From the NCBI RefSeq assembly GCF_055900595.2, contig NZ_CM148325.1: a stretch of DNA of 64,000 bases; one strand, written 5' to 3'. Below the pieces are notes generated by a model. It was not told where the DNA came from. It made no database searches and worked only from the letters and a program-made list of their open reading frames with translations. This document shows, piece after piece, positions 14,636 to 64,000 of this stretch; positions within the stretch are counted from its first letter, which is position 1, and each line of letters opens with the position of its first letter. A program made the translations under genes and the position numbers.

Positions 14636-14882
14636 TACGTATCAACCAATCAATTGTGATGATTACGATAATCTTGAGCTCGCCTGCCAGCATCATTTAA
14701 TGCTGACACTTGAGCTGAAAGATGGCGAAAAACTGCAGGGGAAGGCCAGCGATTTAGTCTCCCGCAAAAATGTGGAATATCTGGTCGTTGAAGCTGCTGG
14801 CGAAACACGCGAGCTACGCCTGGATAAAATTACCAGCTTTAGCCACCCGGAAATTGGTACGGTGGTGGTGAGCGAGTCCTGA
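14628..14882 (+). CDS. rof: Rho-binding antiterminator Rof (YaeO)
   Basis: ORF track 14622..14882; start placed at [36 protein letters not shown] (84 aa); overlaps the yaeP stop by 8 nt. Confidence 0.88.
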
Positions 14883-53641: not shown

Positions 53642-54922
53642 ATGAGTAAGTCTGAAAATCTATACAGCGCAGCGCGCGAGCTGATCCCTGGCGGTGTGAA
53701 CTCCCCTGTTCGCGCCTTTACCGGCGTGGGCGGCACTCCACTGTTTATCGAAAAAGCGGACGGCGCTTATCTGTACGATGTTGATGGCAAAGCCTATATC
53801 GATTATGTCGGTTCCTGGGGGCCGATGGTGCTGGGCCATAACCATCCGGCGATCCGCAATGCCGTGATTGAAGCCGCCGAGCGTGGTTTAAGCTTTGGTG
53901 CACCGACCGAAATGGAAGTGAAAATGGCGCAACTGGTGACCGAACTGGTCCCGACCATGGATATGGTGCGCATGGTGAACTCCGGCACTGAAGCGACAAT
54001 GAGTGCCATCCGCCTGGCCCGCGGTTTTACCGGTCGCGACAAAATCATTAAATTTGAAGGTTGTTACCACGGTCACGCTGACTGCCTGCTGGTAAAAGCC
54101 GGTTCTGGCGCACTCACGTTAGGCCAGCCAAACTCGCCGGGCGTTCCGGCAGATTTCGCCAAACATACATTAACCTGTACTTATAACGATCTGGCCTCTG
54201 TACGCGCCGCGTTTGAGCAATACCCGCAAGAGATTGCCTGTATTATTGTCGAGCCAGTAGCAGGCAACATGAACTGTGTTCCGCCGCTGCCAGAGTTCCT
54301 ACCGGGTCTGCGCGCACTGTGCGACGAATTTGGCGCATTGCTGATCATCGATGAAGTGATGACCGGTTTCCGCGTGGCGCTGGCTGGCGCGCAGGATTAT
54401 TACGACGTGGTGCCAGACCTCACCTGCCTGGGCAAAATCATCGGCGGTGGAATGCCGGTAGGCGCATTCGGTGGTCGTCGTGATGTGATGGATGCGCTGG
54501 CCCCGACCGGTCCGGTCTATCAGGCGGGTACGCTTTCCGGTAACCCGATTGCGATGGCAGCCGGTTTCGCCTGTCTGAATGAAGTCGCGCAGCCGGGCGT
54601 TCACGAGACGCTGGATGAGCTGACAACACGTCTGGCAGAAGGTCTGCGGGAAGCGGCAGAAGAAGCGGGAATTCCATTGGTCGTTAACCATGTTGGCGGC
54701 ATGTTCGGTATTTTCTTTACCGACGCCGAGTCCGTGACGTGCTATCAGGATGTGATGGCCTGCGACGTCGAGCGCTTTAAGCGTTTCTTCCATATGATGC
54801 TGGACGAAGGTGTTTACCTGGCACCGTCAGCGTTTGAAGCGGGCTTTATGTCTGTGGCGCACAGCATGGAAGATATCAATAACACCATCGATGCTGCACG
54901 TCGGGTGTTTGCGAAGTTGTGA
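53642..54922 (+). CDS. hemL: Glutamate-1-semialdehyde 2,1-aminomutase
   Basis: 426-aa ORF, PLP-dependent class III aminotransferase. Confidence 0.96.
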
Positions 54923-54935
54923 TCCAGCATGGTTT

Positions 54936-55021
54936 GTCGGATGCGGCGTAAACGCCTTATCCGACCTACAGATCAGGACCGTTTGTAGGCCCGATAAGAC
55001 GCCACAGCGTCGCATCGGGCA
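54936..55021. repeat. BIME: two inverted REP units
   Basis: GTCGGATGCGGCGTAAACGCCTTATCCGACCTACA and inverted TGTAGGCCCGATAAGACGCCACAGCGTCGCATCGGGCA between convergent hemL and fhuB. Confidence 0.85.
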
Positions 55022-55079
55022 TCCGTTGCCGCGTAAAAGCTTTATCCATCCAGGAGTTAAGGGCCGTTATATGGAAAAA

Positions 55080-57062
55080 TTAACGGCTCTGCTTTCTCAA
55101 CAAATAGATAAAATACGGCGCGCCGATAAAGGTCGACAGCAGCCCCGCTGGGATCTGGAATGGAAACAGCACCATCCGCCCACACCAGTCAGCGAACACC
55201 AGCAGTAATCCCCCCACCAGCGCCGAAATCACAATATGCGGCATCGTCCGTCGAAAGCCCATCATCCGTGCGATATGCGGTGCCATCAGGCCAACAAAAC
55301 TCAACGGCCCGATGGTCATTGTCGCGGTCGCCGTCAGGCAAGCCGCCAGCAGCAGTAGCGCAATTCGCGTCGGCGTCAGCGCCATTCCCACGGCTCGTGC
55401 GGTATCACCTCCCAGCGGTAAAATGGTCAGCCAGCGGCGGCACAGCGGGGTAATCGCCAGCAAAATCACCATCACAATTCCGGTGCGCCAGACCTGCGCC
55501 TCGGTCGCGTTGTAGGTCGAACCGGAAATCCAGGTCAGAACTTGCGCCATTCGCGGGTCACCACTTGCCTGCAACATCATCAAAAGCATGGTGAACGCGG
55601 TACTTAACGCCATCCCCGCCAGTAACATGCGGTGTGGAGAAAATCCACCGCGTCCGGCGGCGATCATAATGATCAACAGCGTCACCGCCGCCCCGAGACT
55701 TCCCGCGGGTAACAGCCAGCCAAAGGCATTACCCGGCACCAGAAACAGCATTAACACCACGCCAAACGCCGCGCCGGAGCTAATCCCCAGCACTTCCGGG
55801 CTTGCCATCGGGTTGCCGGTCAGCCGCTGAATAATACAGCCCGCCACCGCCAGCATGACGCCCGCAAACAGCGCCGCCATAATTCGCGGCCAGCGCCAGG
55901 GCATCAAATCCTCGAGCAGCGCCCCGCTCGCCCACGTCCAGCCGTGCGCATCACGACCAAACGACAGCGCCACCACCACAGCAATTATCAGCAGCACACC
56001 GCCAGCAAGGGCAAACGCCAGCACATGTTGGCGTTCAGTCGCGACACGATCGTTGGCCTTCATATCCGGCGCACTGATGCTGCGTAAACGCGGCAGCAGC
56101 CACAGTAACAGCGGCGCACCTATCAACGCCGTCATCGAACCGGTAGAAACTTCCATCCACACGCGAGTCAGCCAGAGGATGATTTGATCGGAAAGCCAGA
56201 GGATCAGCGCACCAATCAGTGACGCCAGCAGCAGTCTTGGCAGCAGACGCCGCGCCCCCAGCATTTTTGCCAGCAGCGGCGCGAACAACCCGATAAAGCC
56301 GATAATCCCCACCGCGTTCACCAGCAGAGCACTGATGACTATCGCCAGCGACAGCGCCGCCAGACGCGCGAGCGATAAAGCCAGTCCGAGATTACGCGCC
56401 ACGCCATCATCAAGCCCCATCAGGGTTAATGGACGAAGTAGCAGTAACGTCAACATCACGCCGCCCAGCAGCTGTGGCCATAAACGCTCAACGCCGCCCC
56501 AGTCGGTTTGCGTCAGCGTTCCGGTACTCCACAGGAACATGCTTTGTAGCTGGTCGTGATGGAAGATAACCAGTAACTGATTGATTGCCCCGCAATAAAG
56601 GCTCACCACAAGCCCCGCGAGGATCAGCGTTACCGGAGAAAGCCGTTTCCCCCACGCGACGCCAAAGACAATTAAGCCAACCACACAAGCCCCTGCCAAT
56701 GCAGCAAACTGGCTCGCCATAGCACCAGGGATCGCCCAGAGCGTGGTGACGGTAATCCCCAGTTGCGCGCCTGTAGCAACGCCCAACGTGGTCGGTTCCG
56801 CCAGCGGGTTACGTAACACTTGCTGAAACAGCACGCCCACCAGTCCCAGACCCGCGCCCACCAGCAGCGAAATCGCCAGACGTGGCAGCAAGCTGTAGTG
56901 AAAAATCATCTGCTCGATGACGTCAATATCCGGCGACCAGGCAGCCTGCGCCCACTGGCTACGCGGCAGCGCCTGAGAGAAGTTCATCCAGGTGAGCACC
57001 GCTGCGGCAACCACCAACAGCGCCAGCAATAATGCCGGGAAAAGCGCAATACGTTTACTCAC
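55080..57062 (-). CDS. fhuB: Ferric hydroxamate ABC transporter permease (duplicated)
   Basis: 660-aa hydrophobic ORF with two FecCD-like halves. Confidence 0.95.
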   Translation of the reverse strand: MSKRIALFPALLLALLVVAAAVLTWMNFSQALPRSQWAQAAWSPDIDVIEQMIFHYSLLPRLAISLLVGAGLGLVGVLFQQVLRNPLAEPTTLGVATGAQLGITVTTLWAIPGAMASQFAALAGACVVGLIVFGVAWGKRLSPVTLILAGLVVSLYCGAINQLLVIFHHDQLQSMFLWSTGTLTQTDWGGVERLWPQLLGGVMLTLLLLRPLTLMGLDDGVARNLGLALSLARLAALSLAIVISALLVNAVGIIGFIGLFAPLLAKMLGARRLLPRLLLASLIGALILWLSDQIILWLTRVWMEVSTGSMTALIGAPLLLWLLPRLRSISAPDMKANDRVATERQHVLAFALAGGVLLIIAVVVALSFGRDAHGWTWASGALLEDLMPWRWPRIMAALFAGVMLAVAGCIIQRLTGNPMASPEVLGISSGAAFGVVLMLFLVPGNAFGWLLPAGSLGAAVTLLIIMIAAGRGGFSPHRMLLAGMALSTAFTMLLMMLQASGDPRMAQVLTWISGSTYNATEAQVWRTGIVMVILLAITPLCRRWLTILPLGGDTARAVGMALTPTRIALLLLAACLTATATMTIGPLSFVGLMAPHIARMMGFRRTMPHIVISALVGGLLLVFADWCGRMVLFPFQIPAGLLSTFIGAPYFIYLLRKQSR

Positions 57063-57949
57063 GCTTTACCTCCGATGGCGTTATCCAGAATACGCACAAA
57101 GTGCATTGCCGAGAGCGTCGCACCATAAAACCAGACTGCGGGGACGCGCTGAAAGCGTCCGGCACGGACAAACGGCATGGCCTGCCACAGCGGGGTTGCC
57201 ATTAGTGCGTCCATGTCTTTGCTGTTGTCGTGATCAAAACAGAGCACATCAACGTCCTTATACGCTGCCAGACGATCGATACTGACGGCAGTACTGCCCC
57301 AGAAGTTGGTTTCTCCTTGCCAGGCATTTGGGATGCCGTACTCATCGAGAATTTCCTGGAACAGGCTGTTCGGGCCGAAGACCAGCATATGGCGTGGATC
57401 GATAAGCGTCGTCAGCAATAACGGGCGCGCACCACGCTTCACAAAACGGGGTTTCATGCTGCGGATGAAGTCTTCATAGTGCGCTAAATGCGTTTCTGCT
57501 GCGCTTTGCAGGTTAAGCAAATCTGCCATTTCCGTCAGCGATTTACGCGCCATCGCCAGCGGCTGTTTGCCGTCGCTGAAGTTAAATCCGCGCCCCGGCG
57601 CAATACGTGCCAGCATTTCTGGCGAAGGGCCATACCCTGCCGACCAGACCATAAACGACGGCTTCATTTCGGTCAGCAGTTCAAGGTTAGGTTCTGTCCG
57701 CAAACCGACGTCAATCACCGATTCAGGTAATGGCGGTTCGCTGACCCACAGGCGATAGTTGATGGTATCCGCCACGCCGTAAGGCACGATGCCTAGCGCC
57801 AGCAGTAATTCCACCGGCAACCACTCCAGCGCCACAATACGCTTTGGATCAATAGCCGCCGCGCGGGCGGTATTCATCTGCCATAACAACGGAGATAGCG
57901 CCATCGCTGTTAACAGTCGACGGCGCGTAATTAGAGGTAAGCCACTCAT
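57059..57949 (-). CDS. fhuD: Ferric hydroxamate periplasmic binding protein
   Basis: ORF track 57059..57952 (alternative Met one codon upstream); Tat-like RRRLL signal; 4-nt overlap with fhuB. Confidence 0.93.
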   Translation of the reverse strand: MSGLPLITRRRLLTAMALSPLLWQMNTARAAAIDPKRIVALEWLPVELLLALGIVPYGVADTINYRLWVSEPPLPESVIDVGLRTEPNLELLTEMKPSFMVWSAGYGPSPEMLARIAPGRGFNFSDGKQPLAMARKSLTEMADLLNLQSAAETHLAHYEDFIRSMKPRFVKRGARPLLLTTLIDPRHMLVFGPNSLFQEILDEYGIPNAWQGETNFWGSTAVSIDRLAAYKDVDVLCFDHDNSKDMDALMATPLWQAMPFVRAGRFQRVPAVWFYGATLSAMHFVRILDNAIGGKA

Positions 57950-58746
57950 CAATAAACAAAACTCACAGGTGCAGCACCCGCCGGATGCGGCAAAATTCCC
58001 ATCGGGATGCCATAAATCATTTCGAGGGTTTCGCCGCGCATAATTTCCGCAGGCGTTCCCTGCGCAATCATTTCACCGCCGCGCAGGGCGACCAGATAAT
58101 CACAGTAACGCGCAGCCATATTGATATCGTGCAGCACGGCAATGACCGTCAGGCCACGCTCCTGACTTAAACGGTGCACCAGCGCCAGCACATCAACCTG
58201 GTGGGCGATATCCAGCGCCGAGGTCGGTTCGTCGAGCAACAGACAACGGCTATCCTGCGCCACCAGCATGGCGATCCACGCCCGTTGACGTTCGCCGCCA
58301 GAGAGGCTATCGACCAGCCGATGCGCCAGCGGTTTTAAGCCAACCAGCGAGATAGCCTCTTCGACCTTTTCGCGATCTGCCGCGCCAAAGCGCCCCAGCG
58401 CGCCATGCCACGGGTAACGACCAATCGCCACCAGTTCACGCACCGTCATCCCTTCTGCCGGAGGAAGCTGCTGCGGCAAATAAGCCACTTTGCGAGCAAA
58501 CGCTTTGCTGCTCCAGCTTTCCAGCGGCTGGGCATCAAGAAGAATCTCCCCTTCTGACGGTGGCTGATGGCGGCCCAACATTTTTAACAGCGTGGATTTA
58601 CCAGAGCCGTTGTGACCAATCAGACCGGTCACTTTCCCGGCAGGAAAGGTTAACGACAGCGGATGCAAAAGCGTGCGCCCGGGCACACGAAAGGAGATAT
58701 TACGCAGTGCAAAAGTGGTATCGGAATGATTCGTGTATTCCTGCAT
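57949..58746 (-). CDS. fhuC: Ferric hydroxamate ABC transporter ATPase
   Basis: ORF track 57949..58851; start placed at MQEYTNHSDTTFALRNISF (265 aa); Walker A GHNGSGKST, signature LSGGERQR. Confidence 0.94.
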   Translation of the reverse strand: MQEYTNHSDTTFALRNISFRVPGRTLLHPLSLTFPAGKVTGLIGHNGSGKSTLLKMLGRHQPPSEGEILLDAQPLESWSSKAFARKVAYLPQQLPPAEGMTVRELVAIGRYPWHGALGRFGAADREKVEEAISLVGLKPLAHRLVDSLSGGERQRAWIAMLVAQDSRCLLLDEPTSALDIAHQVDVLALVHRLSQERGLTVIAVLHDINMAARYCDYLVALRGGEMIAQGTPAEIMRGETLEMIYGIPMGILPHPAGAAPVSFVY

Positions 58747-58796
58747 AACAGCCAACTTGTGAAACGGGCACGGAAATCCGTGCCCCAAAAGAGAAA

Positions 58797-60992
58797 TTAG
58801 AAACGGAAGGTTGCGGTTGCAACGACCTGACGTTCTGCGCCCCAGTAACATGCATAATCACGATAGCAACTGGAGACATATTCGCGGTCGAACAGGTTAT
58901 TTACGTTAACACCAACAGAAGAACCAGGCATACCGAAACGAGCAAGATCATATTTTATCATTGCATCAACCAAGGTATACCCCCCAACATTGAATGTCTG
59001 ATTGGTCTTATCACCCGTAGTGTAGAAACTTGAGGTGTCGCCAAAATAACGTGCCCCTGCACCAAGACTCAGACCACTAAGAGCTGTTTCGTGGAAAGTG
59101 TAATCTGCCCACAGCGAAGCCATATTTCGGGGGACCTCTGCCGGGCGTTTACCCTTGTACAATGTATCTTTGGTGTATTCAGCATCGGTGTAGCTGTATG
59201 CCGCAGTCACATTGATATTAGCGTTGACAGCTGCTTTAGCCTCAATCTCAAAGCCACGAGAACGAATCTCCCCCCCTTGTACGCTAAACAAAGTATTACT
59301 TGGATCTGCAGTCAGATTTTTGTCTTTCGTTAATTGGAATACCGAGGCAGTGACAGTGACAGGCGTATCTTTTGGTACGTATTTGACACCTGCTTCGTAC
59401 TGCTTACCGCGAGAAGGATCAAACGGTTTACCTTCTTTAGTCGCTCCAGATACTGGCTCGAAGGATTCGCTATAACTGAAATAAGGTGAAATACCATTAT
59501 CGAACAGATAATTAATACCACCTCTCCAGGTGAACTGCTGATCGTTAATTTCATCCAAAGAACTCGTTGAACGAGTATAGGTAGAGGTTTTCGCAAAATC
59601 GTAACGACCACCCAGCGTCAATACCCACTTATTCCACTCAGACTGATCCTGAATATAAAGGCCTGTCTGTTCCTGACGGTTAATTACCGCATATGGGAAA
59701 TTGATATTGATATTGGCGTTACCGTACTGTGGATCCGTCATGCTAATCGGATTAGCAGTACCATAGTTTGCATCAATATCGTTACGCATTCGCAGGTAAT
59801 CCACGCCAGTAAGCAAAGTATGCGCTACAGCACCGGTAGCAAAGTTGGACTGTAGTTGCGTATCAACAGTAAACGAATTTAAATCTTCGTCTGAACGTAC
59901 ATAAGCACGGCTAATTTGCGCTGGCGCGATGTAACCATTGCCATATACTGCATCGTAGAGTGTATGAATGCGGGTATAGCGCAGATTCTGACGTACAGTA
60001 AAAGTATCATTAAATTCATGAGCAAAACTGTAGCCAATTAATTGTTGACGACGAGACATCTTATTATCTTTCTCGCCTTCATTGAAATCTGTTGGCAATT
60101 TGTGCCAGCTACCATTTGCATCCTGATAGGGAACAACAGTTCCCTGGCGCGGTAACCAACCATAATAGCCCGCATCGGGATCACTCTGGAAATTACTCAG
60201 GAAAGTGAAATCCGTTTTATCATCAGGACGCCAACTGAATGAGGGAGCAACTGCATACCTTGTAGTTTTTGCGTACTTTTGTTGCGCATCCTGACTACGT
60301 CCTAATCCCGTCAAACGATATGACCAAACGCCATCATCATCTATTGCATCACTAAAATCGAATCCGGTCTGCCAAAGATTATCCGTTCCCATTTTGAACT
60401 GGATCTCTTTAATCGGATCCGTTGAAGGCCGTTTGCTTACCATGCTCACTACTCCGCCCGGATGGCTTTTACCATACAGTACGGATACTGGGCCACGGAG
60501 TAATTCCACACGCTCAAGGAAATAAGGATCAATAGAGGCTTCAGAGTAGTTATCCCCCTGAAGTTTTAAGCCATCCAGATATTGGTTAGTATTTACTGTA
60601 CTGGCTGTAGTAAATCCACGTATAGAAACAACATCATACGTTGTTGAACTACCACGCGTTGAAAAGACACTTGGCGTATAATCCAGAGCTTCTTTTACCG
60701 TTGCGGGTTGTTTGATATCCATCTCTTCCCGGGTCACAACCGAAATAGACTGCGGCGTTTTTTCAATTGGTGTATCCGTTTTAGTCGCAGTAGCAGAGTG
60801 CTTCGCCGCAATAGTTGCAGCTGGCCCCCATGCGCTTTCTTGCGGCGCTGGTGCAGCGGTAACGGTGATAGTGTCTTCTTTCGGTTCAACCGCTGCCTGT
60901 GCATAAACAGACATGCCGCTAACCGCTGTGGCTACTACAACTGCGATTTTACGCAGTGAGTGTTTTGGCTGAGCAGTTTTGGAACGCGCCAT
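58797..60992 (-). CDS. fhuA: TonB-dependent ferrichrome outer-membrane transporter FhuA, divergent mosaic allele
   Basis: 731-aa ORF. The first ~62 residues (signal peptide, TonB-box DTITV) and last ~11 residues (AERQVVATATFRF) match K-12 FhuA as I recall it; the interior is clearly homologous but heavily substituted and 16 aa shorter, and its DNA is AT-rich. Confidence 0.9.
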   Translation of the reverse strand: MARSKTAQPKHSLRKIAVVVATAVSGMSVYAQAAVEPKEDTITVTAAPAPQESAWGPAATIAAKHSATATKTDTPIEKTPQSISVVTREEMDIKQPATVKEALDYTPSVFSTRGSSTTYDVVSIRGFTTASTVNTNQYLDGLKLQGDNYSEASIDPYFLERVELLRGPVSVLYGKSHPGGVVSMVSKRPSTDPIKEIQFKMGTDNLWQTGFDFSDAIDDDGVWSYRLTGLGRSQDAQQKYAKTTRYAVAPSFSWRPDDKTDFTFLSNFQSDPDAGYYGWLPRQGTVVPYQDANGSWHKLPTDFNEGEKDNKMSRRQQLIGYSFAHEFNDTFTVRQNLRYTRIHTLYDAVYGNGYIAPAQISRAYVRSDEDLNSFTVDTQLQSNFATGAVAHTLLTGVDYLRMRNDIDANYGTANPISMTDPQYGNANININFPYAVINRQEQTGLYIQDQSEWNKWVLTLGGRYDFAKTSTYTRSTSSLDEINDQQFTWRGGINYLFDNGISPYFSYSESFEPVSGATKEGKPFDPSRGKQYEAGVKYVPKDTPVTVTASVFQLTKDKNLTADPSNTLFSVQGGEIRSRGFEIEAKAAVNANINVTAAYSYTDAEYTKDTLYKGKRPAEVPRNMASLWADYTFHETALSGLSLGAGARYFGDTSSFYTTGDKTNQTFNVGGYTLVDAMIKYDLARFGMPGSSVGVNVNNLFDREYVSSCYRDYACYWGAERQVVATATFRF

Positions 60993-61014
60993 TGGTATAT
61001 CTCTGATGTAAAGT

Positions 61015-61065
61015 GAATGATAACGTAAACGAGAATGATTATTATAAAGATGAGATAATATTCGA
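61015..61065 (-). promoter_or_regulatory. Fur-box region in the fhuA promoter
   Basis: Clustered GATAAT-type hexamers (TGATAACG, GAGAATGATTATTATAA, GATAATATT) 25-75 nt upstream of the fhuA start. Confidence 0.55.
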
Positions 61066-61171
61066 AACGCTGGCGGGTTCGCAAGCGGTACGCAATCTGA
61101 GCATTCCTGAGGGGTTAATAAACAATCAGATGAAAAGAAAGGGTTAATACTTTGGGTAGGATGTTATTTTA

Positions 61172-61194
61172 CCGGATGGCGACTCGCCATCCGG
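61172..61194. other. Palindrome downstream of mrcB
   Basis: CCGGATGGCG-A-CTCGCCATCCGG 10-bp inverted repeat; no U tract in the mrcB transcript sense. Confidence 0.35.
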
Positions 61195-61211
61195 TATGTC
61201 ACGCTTAGACG

Positions 61212-63746
61212 TTAATTACTACCAAACATATCCTTGATCCAACCTGCTACGCCGTCACTGTCTTTCTGCTCTTGCTGAGCAGGTTGCTGTTGCGGTTGTT
61301 GCTGCGGCTGAGAAGACTGATCAAACGGATTGCCTGACGGTTGCTGCTGAATCTCACTCTGCTGGCACAGCGATTGCGGATCGCTGGTCCAGACCGGCAA
61401 GACACGCATGCCACCGCTGCAGACAAAGTTGCCGTCGTAGTCCACGCCCATATCTGCAATATCTTCTGGTGGAACAAGATTCAGCGGTGTTGGTGTCTGG
61501 TTAGCCAGATAACGCTGATAAATCGACATTGCCCCACTGGCACCATACAGTTTGGTCGGCTGGTTGTTATCACGGCCTACCCAGGTGATGGTCACCGTGC
61601 TGCCGTCAATGCCCGCAAACCAGGTATCCACGTTGTTGTTGGTAGTCCCGGTTTTGCCCGCCAGATGCAGGTTCGGGTATTTCGCCCCAAGCTGACGACC
61701 CGTACCGCGTTGTACCACCTGCTGCATGGTCCATAGTGTCAGATACGCCGCCTGCGCCGGAACCGCGCGTTCCGCCTGCGGGAAGCTCTGATACAACACC
61801 TTGCCATCTTCCGCGATTACCGAACGCAGCGCAGAAAGCGGTGCTCGGTTACCACCGCTGGCGATGGTCTGGAACGCCTGCGCCACTTCAATTGGCGTTA
61901 AGTTCAACGCCCCCAGCAGCATTGCCGGAACCGGATGCAGCTGATCTTTCGGTACGCCCAGTTTAATCCAGGTATCCGTAACCGCAGGCAGCCCCAGCGC
62001 CATCCCCAGATTTACCGTCGGCACGTTCATCGAACGAGTCAACGCATCCACCAGCATCACTCTGCCACTTTCGCTATAACGACGATCATCGTTCTGCGGT
62101 GACCAGACCTGGCCATTCGGCTGACGCAGCGCGATTGGCGCATCGGCAATCCACGTGTTCAGGCGATAGATTTTCGGCTGGCTTAAGGCCGTCAGATAAG
62201 TCGCTGGTTTTGCAAGGGAACCAATCGAACGACGCGCCTGCATCGCACGGTTGTAACCTGCAAACTGCGGCTCAGAACCACCAACCATCGCACGAACTTC
62301 ACCACTAAAGCGGTCGACGACCACAATTGCCGTTTCCAGATCGCTTAACTTACGCTGTTTCTTCAGTGCCGGAATGCCTTCCACGGCGGCTTTTTCCGCC
62401 GCGTCCTGAGCCACCGAGTCAAAGGTAGTGAAGATCTTCACGCCGGAGAGATCTTTTACCTTATCGCCTAATTTCGCCTGCAGCTCCTGACGCACCAGTT
62501 GCATAAAGGCTGGCTGTGGAGAGATTACCCCACCACGCGGCTGAACCCCCAGCGGACGTGCACTCAACATGTCATAGAGCTCTTGATCAATAATCTGCTG
62601 TTGTTGCAGCAGACGCAGCACCAGGTTACGTCGCTCCAGCGCCAGTTTCGGGTTACGCCACGGGTTGTAGATGGACGCTCCTTTCACCATACCAACCAAC
62701 AGCGCCTGCTGGTCGAGACTCAGCTCTTCTACCGGGCGACCAAAGTAGTACAGGCTCGCCAGCGGGAAACCGCGGATTTCGTTGTCGCCGCTCTGACCGA
62801 GATACACCTCGTTCATATACAGCTCAAGAATGCGGTCTTTGCTGTAACGCGCATCCATGATCAGCGCCATGTAGGCTTCGTTCGCTTTACGCCAGTAAGA
62901 ACGTTCGCTGGAGAGGAACAGGTTTTTCACCAACTGTTGCGTCAGCGTACTCGCCCCCTGTACCGTGCGTCCGGCGGTCAGGTTTGCCAGCACCGCACGT
63001 CCGATGGAGTAGAGACTGATCCCATCATGCTCGTAGAAATGACGGTCTTCTGTCGCCAGCAAAGTATCCACCAGCAAATCCGGGAAACCACTGCGCGGCA
63101 CAAACAAACGCTGCTCACCGTTTGGCGAAGAGATCATGGTGATCAGACGCGGATCAAGACGGAAGAAACCAAACTGACGGTTGTTCTCCATATTGACGAT
63201 CGTCGACAGGTGATCGCCATCAAAGGTCAGACGCGCACGCACCTGCCCTTCTTTACTGTCCGGGAAATCAAACGGACGGCGGATCATCTCAATGCTGTTG
63301 GCCTGCACGGTAAATTCGCCAGGACGGGTCATTTTTGACACCTGACGATACTGGGTCGCCTCCAGCAGCTTCACCATCTCGTTCTTGCTGATGGTCATGT
63401 CTGGCTCAAGGTTGACCATTCGGCCATAAACAGCCGCAGGCAATTGCCAGACTTTGCCATCAATACGGCTACGAATTTTTTGATCGAGATAAACACCGTA
63501 AATGGCGATCAGCACGGCAAAAACGATAGCCAGTTTTAGCAGCAGCCATAGCCAGCCGCGTTTGCCACGAGGCTTACGCCCTTTGCCTTTGCCCTTACCT
63601 TTGCGCGGCATCGGTTCTTCATCCTCATAGTCATCATAATCGTCGTAATCATCGTCATCTTCGTAACGACGACGGCTTACCTTTTGTTTGACCGGACGCG
63701 TCGGTTTCCCTTTGCGTCCAATTGGCTCGCGGTCATTCCCGGCCAT
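61212..63746 (-). CDS. mrcB: Penicillin-binding protein 1B (bifunctional glycosyltransferase/transpeptidase)
   Basis: ORF track 61212..63761; start placed at [14 protein letters not shown] (844 aa); acidic/basic cytoplasmic tail, TM helix, transpeptidase motifs, Gln-rich C-terminus. Confidence 0.95.
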
Positions 63747-63839
63747 GCTTTTTCTCCGCAATATTCAGGCGCAAAAGCCCGATTTTCTGTTCTTCTGTAA
63801 CAAGACAGAAGAAGATATCTCTCAAATTTACTTTGGTCT

Positions 63840-64000
63840 TCATGAATACTTTTTCGTCCGTCGCGTCGGTGCGGTATTTGCCGGATCATCCGGCCAGACG
63901 TGTTTGGGATAACGCCCTTTCATCTCTTTTTGCACATCGCGATACGCTCCTTTCCAGAAGGCGCTCAAATCTCGTGTGATTTGCAGCGGCCTTTGGGCAG
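63840..64000 (-). CDS. hrpB: Probable 3' end of ATP-dependent RNA helicase gene hrpB (partial, enters from window edge)
   Basis: Minus-strand frame open for 53 codons from the window edge to a TGA at 63840-63842 (…[29 protein letters not shown]); hrpB precedes mrcB in K-12. The exact stop is uncertain: the spacing to mrcB differs from what I recall. Confidence 0.5.

What the first reader, a model, noticed from the sequence alone, without database searches (positions are those of the whole stretch)
60993..61211. Native Fur-regulated promoter retained upstream of the divergent fhuA
The 219-bp mrcB-fhuA spacer has the same length as in K-12 and carries clustered GATAAT-type Fur-box hexamers upstream of fhuA. 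The mosaic junctions are therefore intragenic: the foreign core was spliced into a locus that keeps its original iron regulation and fhuACDB operon context.
Basis: partly seen in the sequence, partly recalled or inferred. Interest (0 to 1): 0.4.

Follow-up and report, generated by a model that had tools for sequence, protein, structure and literature searches.

The report
Ordinary Fur-controlled fhuA promoter, retained
This is the standard iron-repressed E. coli promoter of the ferrichrome receptor gene fhuA, left intact upstream of a rare, already described variant of the gene, so it is a correct but ordinary observation.

Summary
Window 60993-61211 is the 219-bp mrcB-fhuA spacer and aligns to K-12 without gaps (12 mismatches, 11 of them in the distal half). 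It carries the fhuA Fur operator, a 6-bp-phased array at 61019-61059. This array is the best Fur-like cluster in the 64-kb window, and 0 of 2000 shuffles reach its score. It matches the K-12 operator that shifts with Fur in gels, apart from one edge SNP (61052). It is identical to the CFT073 operator, where fhuA is Fur-dependent.

Identity to K-12 stays near 100% through fhuA codon 63. It then falls to about 60% between 60803 and 58846 and returns to 100% for the last 16 codons and into fhuC. The junctions are therefore inside the gene.

The core allele occurs in 90 of 5426 complete E. coli genomes, including EPEC E2348/69. It fits the published "E4" FhuA cluster (Wang et al. 2018).

Corrections:
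- mrcB and fhuA are transcribed in the same direction.
- "Foreign" is unproven. The nearest non-E. coli relatives of the core are only 82-84% identical in protein.
- The promoter block is nearly invariant across E. coli, so strict vertical inheritance in this strain cannot be shown.

This is known biology and of low interest.

The parts
60993..61211 (-). mrcB-fhuA intergenic spacer, 219 bp
   Evidence: ORF coordinates. Gapless alignment to K-12 167265-167483 with 12 mismatches.
61170..61196 (-). Stem-loop just after the mrcB stop (12-bp stem, 3-nt loop). Probably the 3'-end hairpin of the mrcB transcript. Not a canonical intrinsic terminator.
   Evidence: RNA fold -24.4 kcal/mol, z = -4.7. Followed by AAAAUAA rather than a U-tract, and not reported by the terminator scan. 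Single copy in the window, so not a REP family member. The stem is kept in K-12 and CFT073.
61131..61145 (-). AACCCTTTCTTTTCA, counterpart of the distal HypT footprint site of the Salmonella fhuA promoter (-111 to -97)
   Evidence: Exact position. The Salmonella site is AACCCTTCCTTTTCA (PMC6397515). The window sequence is identical in K-12 and CFT073.
61079..61084 (-). -35-like hexamer TTGCGA of the upstream candidate promoter
   Evidence: Promoter scan: TTGCGA, 18 bp, TATTAT, 9 of 12 matches. TTGCGA/TTGCTA is conserved across most Enterobacterales genera aligned. In ST131 the divergent upstream DNA ends just 5' of it.
61055..61060 (-). -10-like hexamer TATTAT of the upstream candidate promoter, overlapped by the exact Fur hexamer ATTATC (61059-61054)
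   Evidence: Conserved across genera.
61041..61046 (-). -10 hexamer TATAAT of fhuAp, taking the K-12 start-site assignment used in the literature
   Evidence: The position is -12 to -7 relative to the start site implied by the HypT site coordinates in PMC6397515, which take the E. coli start site and boxes from Huerta & Collado-Vides 2003.
61034..61034 (-). Inferred transcription start (+1) of fhuACDB, equivalent to K-12 167442, giving a 41-nt 5' UTR
   Evidence: Derived here. TTACGTTATCATTCA at 61028-61014 is +7 to +21, and AACCC...TCA at 61145-61131 is -111 to -97. Both give the same +1. Not measured in this strain.
61019..61059 (.). Fur operator: array of 6-bp-phased Fur-box matches covering both -10 candidates and +1 (-25 to +16)
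   Evidence: Corresponds to the K-12 cluster (3 sites, 31 bp, 19.5 bits, coordinate 167439, gel-shift positive; PMC2189734). Identical to CFT073 and one edge SNP from K-12. Conserved from Serratia and Rahnella to E. coli.
61014..61028 (-). TTACGTTATCATTCA, exact match to the proximal HypT footprint site (+7 to +21)
60804..60992 (-). Conserved 5' block of fhuA (codons 1-63: signal peptide, TonB box DTITV, linker)
   Evidence: 98.9% identical to K-12 (2 of 189 sites differ). At least 95% identical in 5419 of 5421 E. coli genomes, with sampled hits at 98.4-100%. The adjacent mrcB control segment gives sampled hits of about 96%.
58846..60803 (-). Divergent fhuA core (cork plus barrel, codons 64-716), E4-type allele
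   Evidence: About 60% nt identity to K-12. The whole protein is 63% identical. Present in 90 of 5426 genomes. Nearest other genera are 82-84% identical in protein.
58797..58845 (-). Conserved 3' end of fhuA (last 16 codons plus stop), continuing into the invariant fhuA-fhuC spacer
   Evidence: Identical in all ten strains aligned, whatever their allele class.

Best explanation
Window 60993-61211 is the normal E. coli regulatory region of the fhuACDB operon.

A sigma-70 promoter starts transcription near 61034. Its -10 is TATAAT at 61046-61041. A second conserved candidate, TTGCGA-18-TATTAT, lies 14 bp upstream. An array of Fur-box hexamers at 61019-61059 spans both -10 elements and the start site. 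When iron is plentiful, Fe2+-Fur dimers occupy this array and block RNA polymerase. Under iron limitation Fur leaves and fhuACDB is transcribed. The two sites footprinted by the hypochlorite regulator HypT in Salmonella are also present.

The variant fhuA downstream is one of several old allele classes that move between E. coli lineages by homologous recombination. The crossovers fall in the invariant blocks that flank the variable core: codons 1-63 on one side, and the last 16 codons with the start of fhuC on the other. The receptor core can therefore be swapped without touching the promoter.

Shown here: sequence identity, operator statistics, boundary positions and allele distribution. Inferred: Fur binding and the start site in this strain, both transferred from K-12, CFT073 and Salmonella data.
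For: Operator:
- Phased Fur cluster ranks first in the window, with 0 of 2000 shuffles reaching it.
- It is the same sequence as the K-12 cluster that shifts with Fur (PMC2189734; PMC1807945).
- From the -35 to the start of the 5' UTR it is identical to CFT073. In CFT073 a fur deletion raises fhuA 3.9 log2-fold, and K-12 shows a Fur ChIP-exo peak at 167456-167466 (PMC10164565 supplement).
- The -35, -10 and operator are conserved across most of the Enterobacterales genera aligned.
- The best triplet Fur score is the same in strains of all three allele classes.

Start site: it is consistent from two independent HypT site coordinates.

Boundaries: 60804/60803 and 58846/58845.

The promoter is E. 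coli type, not the type of the genera closest to the core:
- 99-100% identity to K-12, against 59-86% to Trabulsiella, Cedecea, Enterobacter and Pseudescherichia over 61100-60901.
- It has the E. coli states CTCATCTTTATAATAATCATT, not TCTGCGGTCATAATAATAATT.

The promoter haplotype follows strain background, not allele:
- E4 carriers AR_0085 and ZF34 have the K-12 state at 61052.
- E2348/69 has the B2-type 5'-UTR SNPs.
- Window vs E2348/69: 6 of 1958 differences in the core and 6 of 322 in the promoter block, p = 0.003.
Against: - No measurement exists for this strain. Fur binding, iron response and start site are all transferred from other strains.
- Three different -10 assignments exist for this promoter. 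One is the scan's TATTAT. One is TATAAT, as used in PMC6397515. [quoted passage not shown] So the exact geometry of repression is uncertain.
- The promoter plus 5' block is much closer to K-12 (1 of 253) than the strain's background of 4.4% (p = 1e-4). 'Native' in the sense of vertical descent in this lineage is therefore not established.
- The hairpin after mrcB lacks a U-tract, so some read-through from mrcB cannot be excluded.
Confidence: 0.85

Rival explanations
1. The promoter block is not native to this lineage. It arrived by recombination from mainstream E. coli, either together with an fhuA allele or in a separate earlier event, and only looks 'retained' because every E. coli has nearly the same sequence there.
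For: - The window's flanks differ from K-12 by 4.4% (mrcB 96.5% and fhuCDB 95.0% identical).
- In contrast, 61102-60850 differs at 1 of 253 sites (p = 1.4e-4) and the first 143 coding bases at 0 sites (p = 0.0016).
- Across genera the signal-peptide region is not strongly conserved at nucleotide level (59-86%), so protein constraint alone does not explain zero synonymous change.
Against: - The block carries states private to, or rare outside, the window's lineage (61111 C, 60849 A, 60822 A), so any import is not very recent.
- It differs from the E2348/69 block six times more per site than the core does, so it did not come with the latest core transfer.
- Strong regulatory constraint is evident for the promoter part.
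Confidence: 0.3
2. The Fur-like hexamers are a chance by-product of AT-rich intergenic DNA and fhuA here is not Fur-controlled.
For: A single 14 of 19 match is not rare. Four such sites occur in the window, and 43 of 2000 shuffles of the spacer reach 14. The second-best phased cluster (14649-14685) lies in the rof/yaeP/tilS region and is presumably meaningless.
Against: - The phased triple score ranks first of 63,970 positions, and 0 of 2000 shuffles reach it.
- The sequence matches operators with experimental Fur binding or Fur-dependent expression.
- The operator is conserved across most of the genera aligned, while the surrounding spacer is not.
Confidence: 0.02
3. fhuA in this strain is expressed largely by read-through from mrcB, because the post-mrcB hairpin is not a canonical terminator. 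The Fur promoter would then be secondary.
For: The hairpin at 61196-61170 is followed by AAAAUAA, not a U-tract. No terminator-like site on the - strand was found in the spacer.
Against: The same hairpin and spacer are present in K-12. There, fur deletion changes fhuACDB but not mrcB, and fhuA RNA levels differ from mrcB levels (PMC10164565 supplement). A 12-bp GC-rich stem may still stop or process transcripts.
Confidence: 0.05

Closest known systems
fhuAp, the Fur-repressed promoter of fhuACDB in E. coli K-12 (Fur cluster at 167439; Chen et al. 2007, PMC2189734; Shultzaberger et al. 2007, PMC1807945)
   Same: Same position, same 219-bp spacer, same -35 and -10 candidates, same Fur array and the same triplet Fur score (39 in both). 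The proximal 110 bp differ at one base.
   Different: C instead of T at 61052, at the upstream edge of the array. This state is also found in CFT073, the APEC strain and E2348/69. There are eleven further SNPs in the distal half of the spacer, one of them in the loop of the post-mrcB hairpin.
E4 cluster / Group II FhuA of E. coli (Wang et al. 2018, Infect Immun 86:e00573-18; bioRxiv 10.1101/320069); allele of EPEC E2348/69
   Same: Insertions at the two positions said to be unique to E4 (near residues 297-300 and 699-703 of their alignment) are present relative to K-12 and to the third allele class. The core is 99.7% identical to E2348/69. The conserved-flanks, variable-core pattern is the published 'mosaic evolution'.
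   Different: The preprint of that paper does not use the words promoter, upstream, intergenic or breakpoint. The exact boundaries (60804/60803 and 58846/58845) and the independence of promoter haplotype from allele class were worked out here. The assignment to E4 is inferred from the indel description, not from their strain list.
Salmonella Typhimurium fhuA promoter with two HypT sites (Jo et al. 2019, PMC6397515)
   Same: The proximal site TTACGTTATCATTCA is identical. The distal site differs at one base. The spacing to the start site is the same.
   Different: HypT binding was footprinted on Salmonella DNA only and was not tested for E. coli or this strain.

Membership tests
Fur-repressed sigma-70 promoter (E. 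coli fhuAp) | Fur-box array matching the GATAATGATWATCATTATC consensus as overlapping 6-bp-phased sites | tested here: met
   11, 13, 14 and 12 of 19 at 6-bp steps. Triple score 39, rank 1 of 63,970 positions, 0 of 2000 shuffles.
Fur-repressed sigma-70 promoter (E. coli fhuAp) | Operator overlaps the -10 element and/or the transcription start | tested here: met
   The array 61019-61059 covers TATTAT (61060-61055), TATAAT (61046-61041) and the inferred +1 at 61034. The start site is transferred from K-12, not measured.
Fur-repressed sigma-70 promoter (E. coli fhuAp) | Sequence identity to an operator shown to bind Fur or to confer Fur-dependent expression | tested here: met
   One edge SNP from K-12 (gel shift). 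Identical to CFT073, where fur deletion gives +3.9 log2.
Fur-repressed sigma-70 promoter (E. coli fhuAp) | Fur binding and iron-dependent repression in this strain | not testable with these tools
   Needs EMSA or footprinting and expression assays.
fhuACDB operon | Gene order fhuA-fhuC-fhuD-fhuB on one strand with K-12-like spacing | tested here: met
   ORFs at 58797-60992, 57949-, 57059-57952 and 55080-57062, all on the - strand. Collinear with K-12 at 94-100% identity outside the core.
E4-type mosaic fhuA allele (Wang et al. 2018) | Insertions at Indel 1 and Indel 2 that are absent from other E. coli clusters | tested here: met
   A 4-aa insertion near residue 291 and a 3+1-aa insertion near residue 657, relative to both K-12 and the third class. 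Description.
E4-type mosaic fhuA allele (Wang et al. 2018) | Listed as E4 in the authors' own clustering | not tested
   Their strain table is not in the text held. E2348 is not mentioned.
Rho-independent terminator (for the hairpin 61196-61170) | GC-rich stem-loop followed by a U-tract on the transcribed strand | tested here: not met
   A strong stem is present but is followed by AAAAUAA. It is not reported by the scan.
REP/BIME repeat (for the hairpin) | Multiple dispersed copies of the palindromic unit | tested here: not met
   Only the one locus matches in the 64-kb window with up to 3 mismatches. No repeat feature is annotated there in K-12.
Known RNA families (Rfam) | Match to any covariance model in 60800-61400 | tested here: not met
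   No match up to E = 1.

The most novel reading that the evidence does not exclude
Two blocks flank the variable fhuA core and are nearly invariant across the species. One is the promoter plus codons 1-63. The other is the last 16 codons plus the fhuA-fhuC spacer and the start of fhuC. On this reading they act as fixed homology arms of a receptor 'cassette'. Repeated allele swapping between lineages, driven by phage and colicin pressure, would keep these arms homogenised well below the genomic background divergence. That would explain why all three allele classes share the same 3' boundary, why the window allele and the third class share the 5' boundary against the K-12 type, and why regulation is never disturbed.
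Probability: 0.35. Interest if true: 0.35.

Novelty: already known. Interest (0 to 1): 0.1.

Why it matters
It matters little beyond annotation. It confirms that this strain's variant FhuA is expressed under the normal iron (Fur) control. FhuA is the receptor for ferrichrome, albomycin, colicin M, microcin J25 and phages T1, T5 and phi80. Any change in phage, colicin or antibiotic susceptibility should therefore come from the protein surface and not from altered regulation.

The one mildly useful addition is that the exact boundaries are now defined. The promoter haplotype also tracks strain background rather than allele class. This supports cassette-like exchange of the receptor core, an idea already published as 'mosaic evolution' of outer membrane proteins.

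Tried and rejected
- Real Fur weight matrix: the site lists of Chen et al. 2007 are in supplements that are not held. I used consensus matching with a phased-triplet statistic and shuffles instead.
- Rfam scan of 60800-61400: nothing.
- Hairpin after mrcB as a REP element or intrinsic terminator: single copy and no U-tract. Left as a probable 3'-end hairpin.
- Search for a donor of the core among 100,044 species representatives: the best are Trabulsiella, Cedecea, Enterobacter, Buttiauxella and Pseudescherichia at 84% protein identity. Nucleotide identity to four of these genera is about 74%, roughly the same as for the flanking genes. No recent foreign donor can be named. The K-12-type allele could equally be the unusual one.
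- Small ORFs in the spacer (27-49 aa): they overlap the promoter or the start of fhuA, have no support, and were dismissed.
- Second-best Fur-like cluster at 14649-14685: lies in the rof/yaeP/tilS region and was judged to be chance.
- One malformed literature query and two malformed paper reading 'find' calls gave errors.

Full report
What is at the coordinates.

On the - strand the window carries mrcB (stop at 61214-61212), a 219-bp spacer (61211-60993), fhuA (60992-58797, 731 codons), and then fhuC, fhuD and fhuB. All five genes run in the same direction, as in K-12. fhuA is therefore not divergently transcribed from mrcB. It is only divergent in sequence.

The K-12 spacer (167265-167483) is also 219 bp, and the two align without gaps. 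There are twelve mismatches. Eleven lie in the distal half (61211-61103) and one (61052, C vs T) lies in the proximal 110 bp. The 219-bp spacing is also found in every other E. coli I fetched that has mrcB next to fhuA. The matching length says nothing specific about K-12.

The Fur operator.

Matches to the 19-bp Fur consensus occur at 61019, 61025, 61031 and 61037 (11, 13, 14 and 12 of 19). They are spaced exactly 6 bp apart, which is the pattern expected for overlapping Fur sites. An exact ATTATC hexamer sits at 61059-61054.

A single 14 of 19 match is not remarkable: there are four in the window, and 43 of 2000 shuffles of the spacer reach it. The phased triple is different. Its score of 39 ranks first of 63,970 positions in the window, and no dinucleotide shuffle of the spacer out of 2000 reaches it.

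This array is the K-12 fhuA Fur cluster described by Chen et al. 2007: three sites over 31 bp, 19.5 bits, coordinate 167439, 45 bp upstream of the ATG, positive in a Fur gel shift (PMC2189734; also PMC1807945). The window differs from it only at 61052, at the upstream edge of the array, and the score does not change.

From the -35 through to the start of the 5' UTR the window is identical to CFT073. In that strain a fur deletion raises fhuA by 3.9 log2 units. In K-12 a Fur ChIP-exo peak lies at 167456-167466 (PMC10164565 supplement). fhuA responded to fur deletion in eight of the nine strains studied there.

Promoter geometry.

The consensus scan finds TTGCGA (61084-61079), 18 bp, then TATTAT (61060-61055).

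Jo et al. 2019 (PMC6397515) take the E. coli start site and boxes from Huerta & Collado-Vides 2003. They place their two HypT footprints at +7 to +21 and at -111 to -97. Both sequences are in the window, at 61028-61014 (exact) and at 61145-61131 (one base different from Salmonella, identical to K-12). Both give the same +1 at 61034. That makes TATAAT (61046-61041) the -10 and leaves a 41-nt leader.

A third, model-based assignment puts the -10 29 bases upstream of the coding region. Whichever is right, the Fur array (61059-61019, about -25 to +16) covers it.

In an alignment of the upstream region from most of the 15 other Enterobacterales genera, the TTGC(G/T)A, the TATTAT and the stretch ATAATAAT(C/A)ATTCTCGTTTACGTTATCATT are conserved from Serratia and Rahnella to E. 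coli, while the surrounding sequence is not. This is good phylogenetic footprinting for the promoter and the operator.

Nothing in Rfam matches the region.

Where the similarity to K-12 breaks.

Identity to K-12 is 99-100% from 61102 to about 60805. It falls to about 60% between 60803 and 58846, and is 100% again from 58845 through the fhuA-fhuC spacer into fhuC.

The conserved 5' block encodes the signal peptide, the TonB box and the linker (codons 1-63). The replaced part is the whole cork and barrel, not only the loops. The whole protein is 63% identical to K-12 FhuA.

What the variant allele is.

The core is present in 90 of 5426 complete E. coli genomes. Thirteen are at least 99% identical, including EPEC E2348/69, and 77 are at about 96.2% in other strains from diverse hosts and sources.

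A third allele class of about 480 genomes is equally distant (67% protein identity). It shares the window's sequence up to about 60745.

This is the published picture. Wang et al. 2018 describe four E. coli FhuA clusters (E1-E4) that do not follow strain phylogeny, and they call the pattern local recombination or mosaic evolution (also PMC12175518). The window's protein has the two insertions they give as unique to E4.

A scan of one genome per bacterial species found no close donor. The best matches are Trabulsiella, Cedecea, Enterobacter, Buttiauxella and Pseudescherichia at 84% protein identity. At nucleotide level the core is about 74% identical to four of these genera, roughly what the flanking mrcB and fhuC show. 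'Foreign' therefore only means 'unlike K-12'. The direction of replacement is not established, and the allele classes look old.

Did the promoter travel with the core?

Three results say it did not.

First, the promoter is E. coli type and not the type of the genera closest to the core. Identity is 99-100% to K-12, against 59-86% to those genera, and the window has the E. coli-specific states next to the operator.

Second, the promoter haplotype follows strain background. E4 carriers AR_0085 and ZF34 have the K-12 state at 61052. E2348/69 has the B2-type 5'-UTR SNPs (61006, 60999) that it shares with CFT073 and an APEC strain. The window has neither of these.

Third, against E2348/69 the window differs at 6 of 1958 core sites but at 6 of 322 sites in 61125-60804 (Fisher p = 0.003). 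The last difference before the core is at 60822. The 5' crossover of the most recent exchange therefore lies between 60822 and the first core difference at 60747, inside fhuA. On the 3' side there are no differences from 58970 to 58607, and then a cluster begins inside fhuC. That crossover may lie in fhuC rather than in fhuA.

A reservation about 'native'.

The window's flanks are about equally distant from the A, B1 and B2 strains compared: mrcB is 95.4-96.6% identical and fhuCDB 94.2-95.0%. Only about 14 complete genomes match it at 99% or more. It comes from a rare, deep lineage.

Against that 4.4% background, 61102-60850 differs from K-12 at only 1 of 253 sites (p = 1.4e-4), and the first 143 coding bases differ at none (p = 0.0016).

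Species-wide, the 93-bp promoter module is at least 95% identical in 5359 of 5421 genomes. The first 189 bases of fhuA are at least 95% identical in 5419 of 5421, with sampled hits at 98.4-100%, against about 96% for an adjacent mrcB segment of the same length.

Regulatory constraint explains the promoter part. The lack of synonymous change in the signal-peptide codons suggests homogenisation by recombination. The block is certainly 'E. coli's own', but it cannot be shown to have descended vertically in this lineage. I give that rival about 0.3.

The rest of the spacer.

Right after the mrcB stop there is a 12-bp perfect stem-loop at 61196-61170 (-24.4 kcal/mol, z = -4.7). It is kept in K-12 and CFT073. 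It is followed by AAAAUAA, not a U-tract, so it is not a textbook terminator. It is single-copy in the window, so it is not a REP element. I treat it as the probable 3'-end hairpin of the mrcB transcript, without proof.

In E2348/69 and in an ST131 strain a chaperone-usher fimbrial operon lies directly upstream of fhuA in place of mrcB. It replaces the distal spacer down to about 61125 in E2348/69 and about 61086 in ST131. Only the last 93 bp or so is common to all E. coli.

Verdict.

Both pieces are textbook or already published: the Fur-controlled fhuA promoter, and the mosaic E4-type fhuA allele found in E2348/69. What this check adds is the exact boundaries, the evidence that the promoter did not move with the core, and the caveats on 'foreign' and 'original'. 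Interest is low.

Noticed in passing
window 54600-58796 and 61212-63746 (flanks of fhuA): The flanking genes are about equally distant from the A, B1 and B2 E. coli compared: mrcB is 95.4-96.6% identical and fhuCDB 94.2-95.0%. Only about 14 of 5426 complete genomes match at 99% or more (dog isolate Z0117EC0005 and Kenyan stool isolates such as E400634). The window seems to come from a rare, deep-branching E. coli lineage.
   Followed up: partly
L002 1-2568 (E2348/69) and L008 1-4781 (ST131); insertion point corresponds to window ~61086-61211: In E2348/69 and in an ST131 strain a chaperone-usher fimbrial operon lies directly upstream of fhuA in place of mrcB and replaces the distal spacer, including the counterpart of the distal HypT site. 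The window lacks this operon.
   Followed up: partly
window 58567-58606 (inside fhuC): A tight cluster of about 10 substitutions is shared only with the near-identical genome E400634 and absent from the other eight strains aligned. It looks like a small recombination patch. It also marks the end of the tract that is near-identical to E2348/69.
   Followed up: partly
window 60804-60835: The K-12 Fur ChIP-exo table of Gao et al. 2023 lists three peaks for fhuACDB. The third (167641-167672) maps to window 60835-60804 and ends exactly at the last conserved base before the divergent core. The sequence there is GC-rich and not Fur-like, so this may be a shoulder artefact. It is unexplained.
   Followed up: no
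window ~58766-58786 (fhuA-fhuC spacer): An inverted repeat, GGGGCACGGATTTCCGTGCCC, lies between fhuA and fhuC. It is identical in nine of the ten strains aligned (WCHEC035125 differs at one loop base), whatever their fhuA allele. It could be an attenuator or an mRNA-stability element.
   Followed up: no
window ~63800-63870 (hrpB-mrcB spacer): K-12 has about 100 extra bases here compared with the window. This is an insertion/deletion in the intergenic region, possibly a repeat element in K-12.
   Followed up: no
window 14649-14685: This is the second-best phased Fur-like cluster in the window (score 37). It lies in the rof/yaeP/tilS region, no link to iron regulation is known to me, and it is probably chance.
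   Followed up: partly
window 60745-60803: The third E. coli fhuA allele class (e.g. WCHEC035125) is identical to the window's allele from the K-12 breakpoint (60803) to about 60745 and diverges only after that. The 5' junctions of the allele classes are therefore nested.
   Followed up: partly
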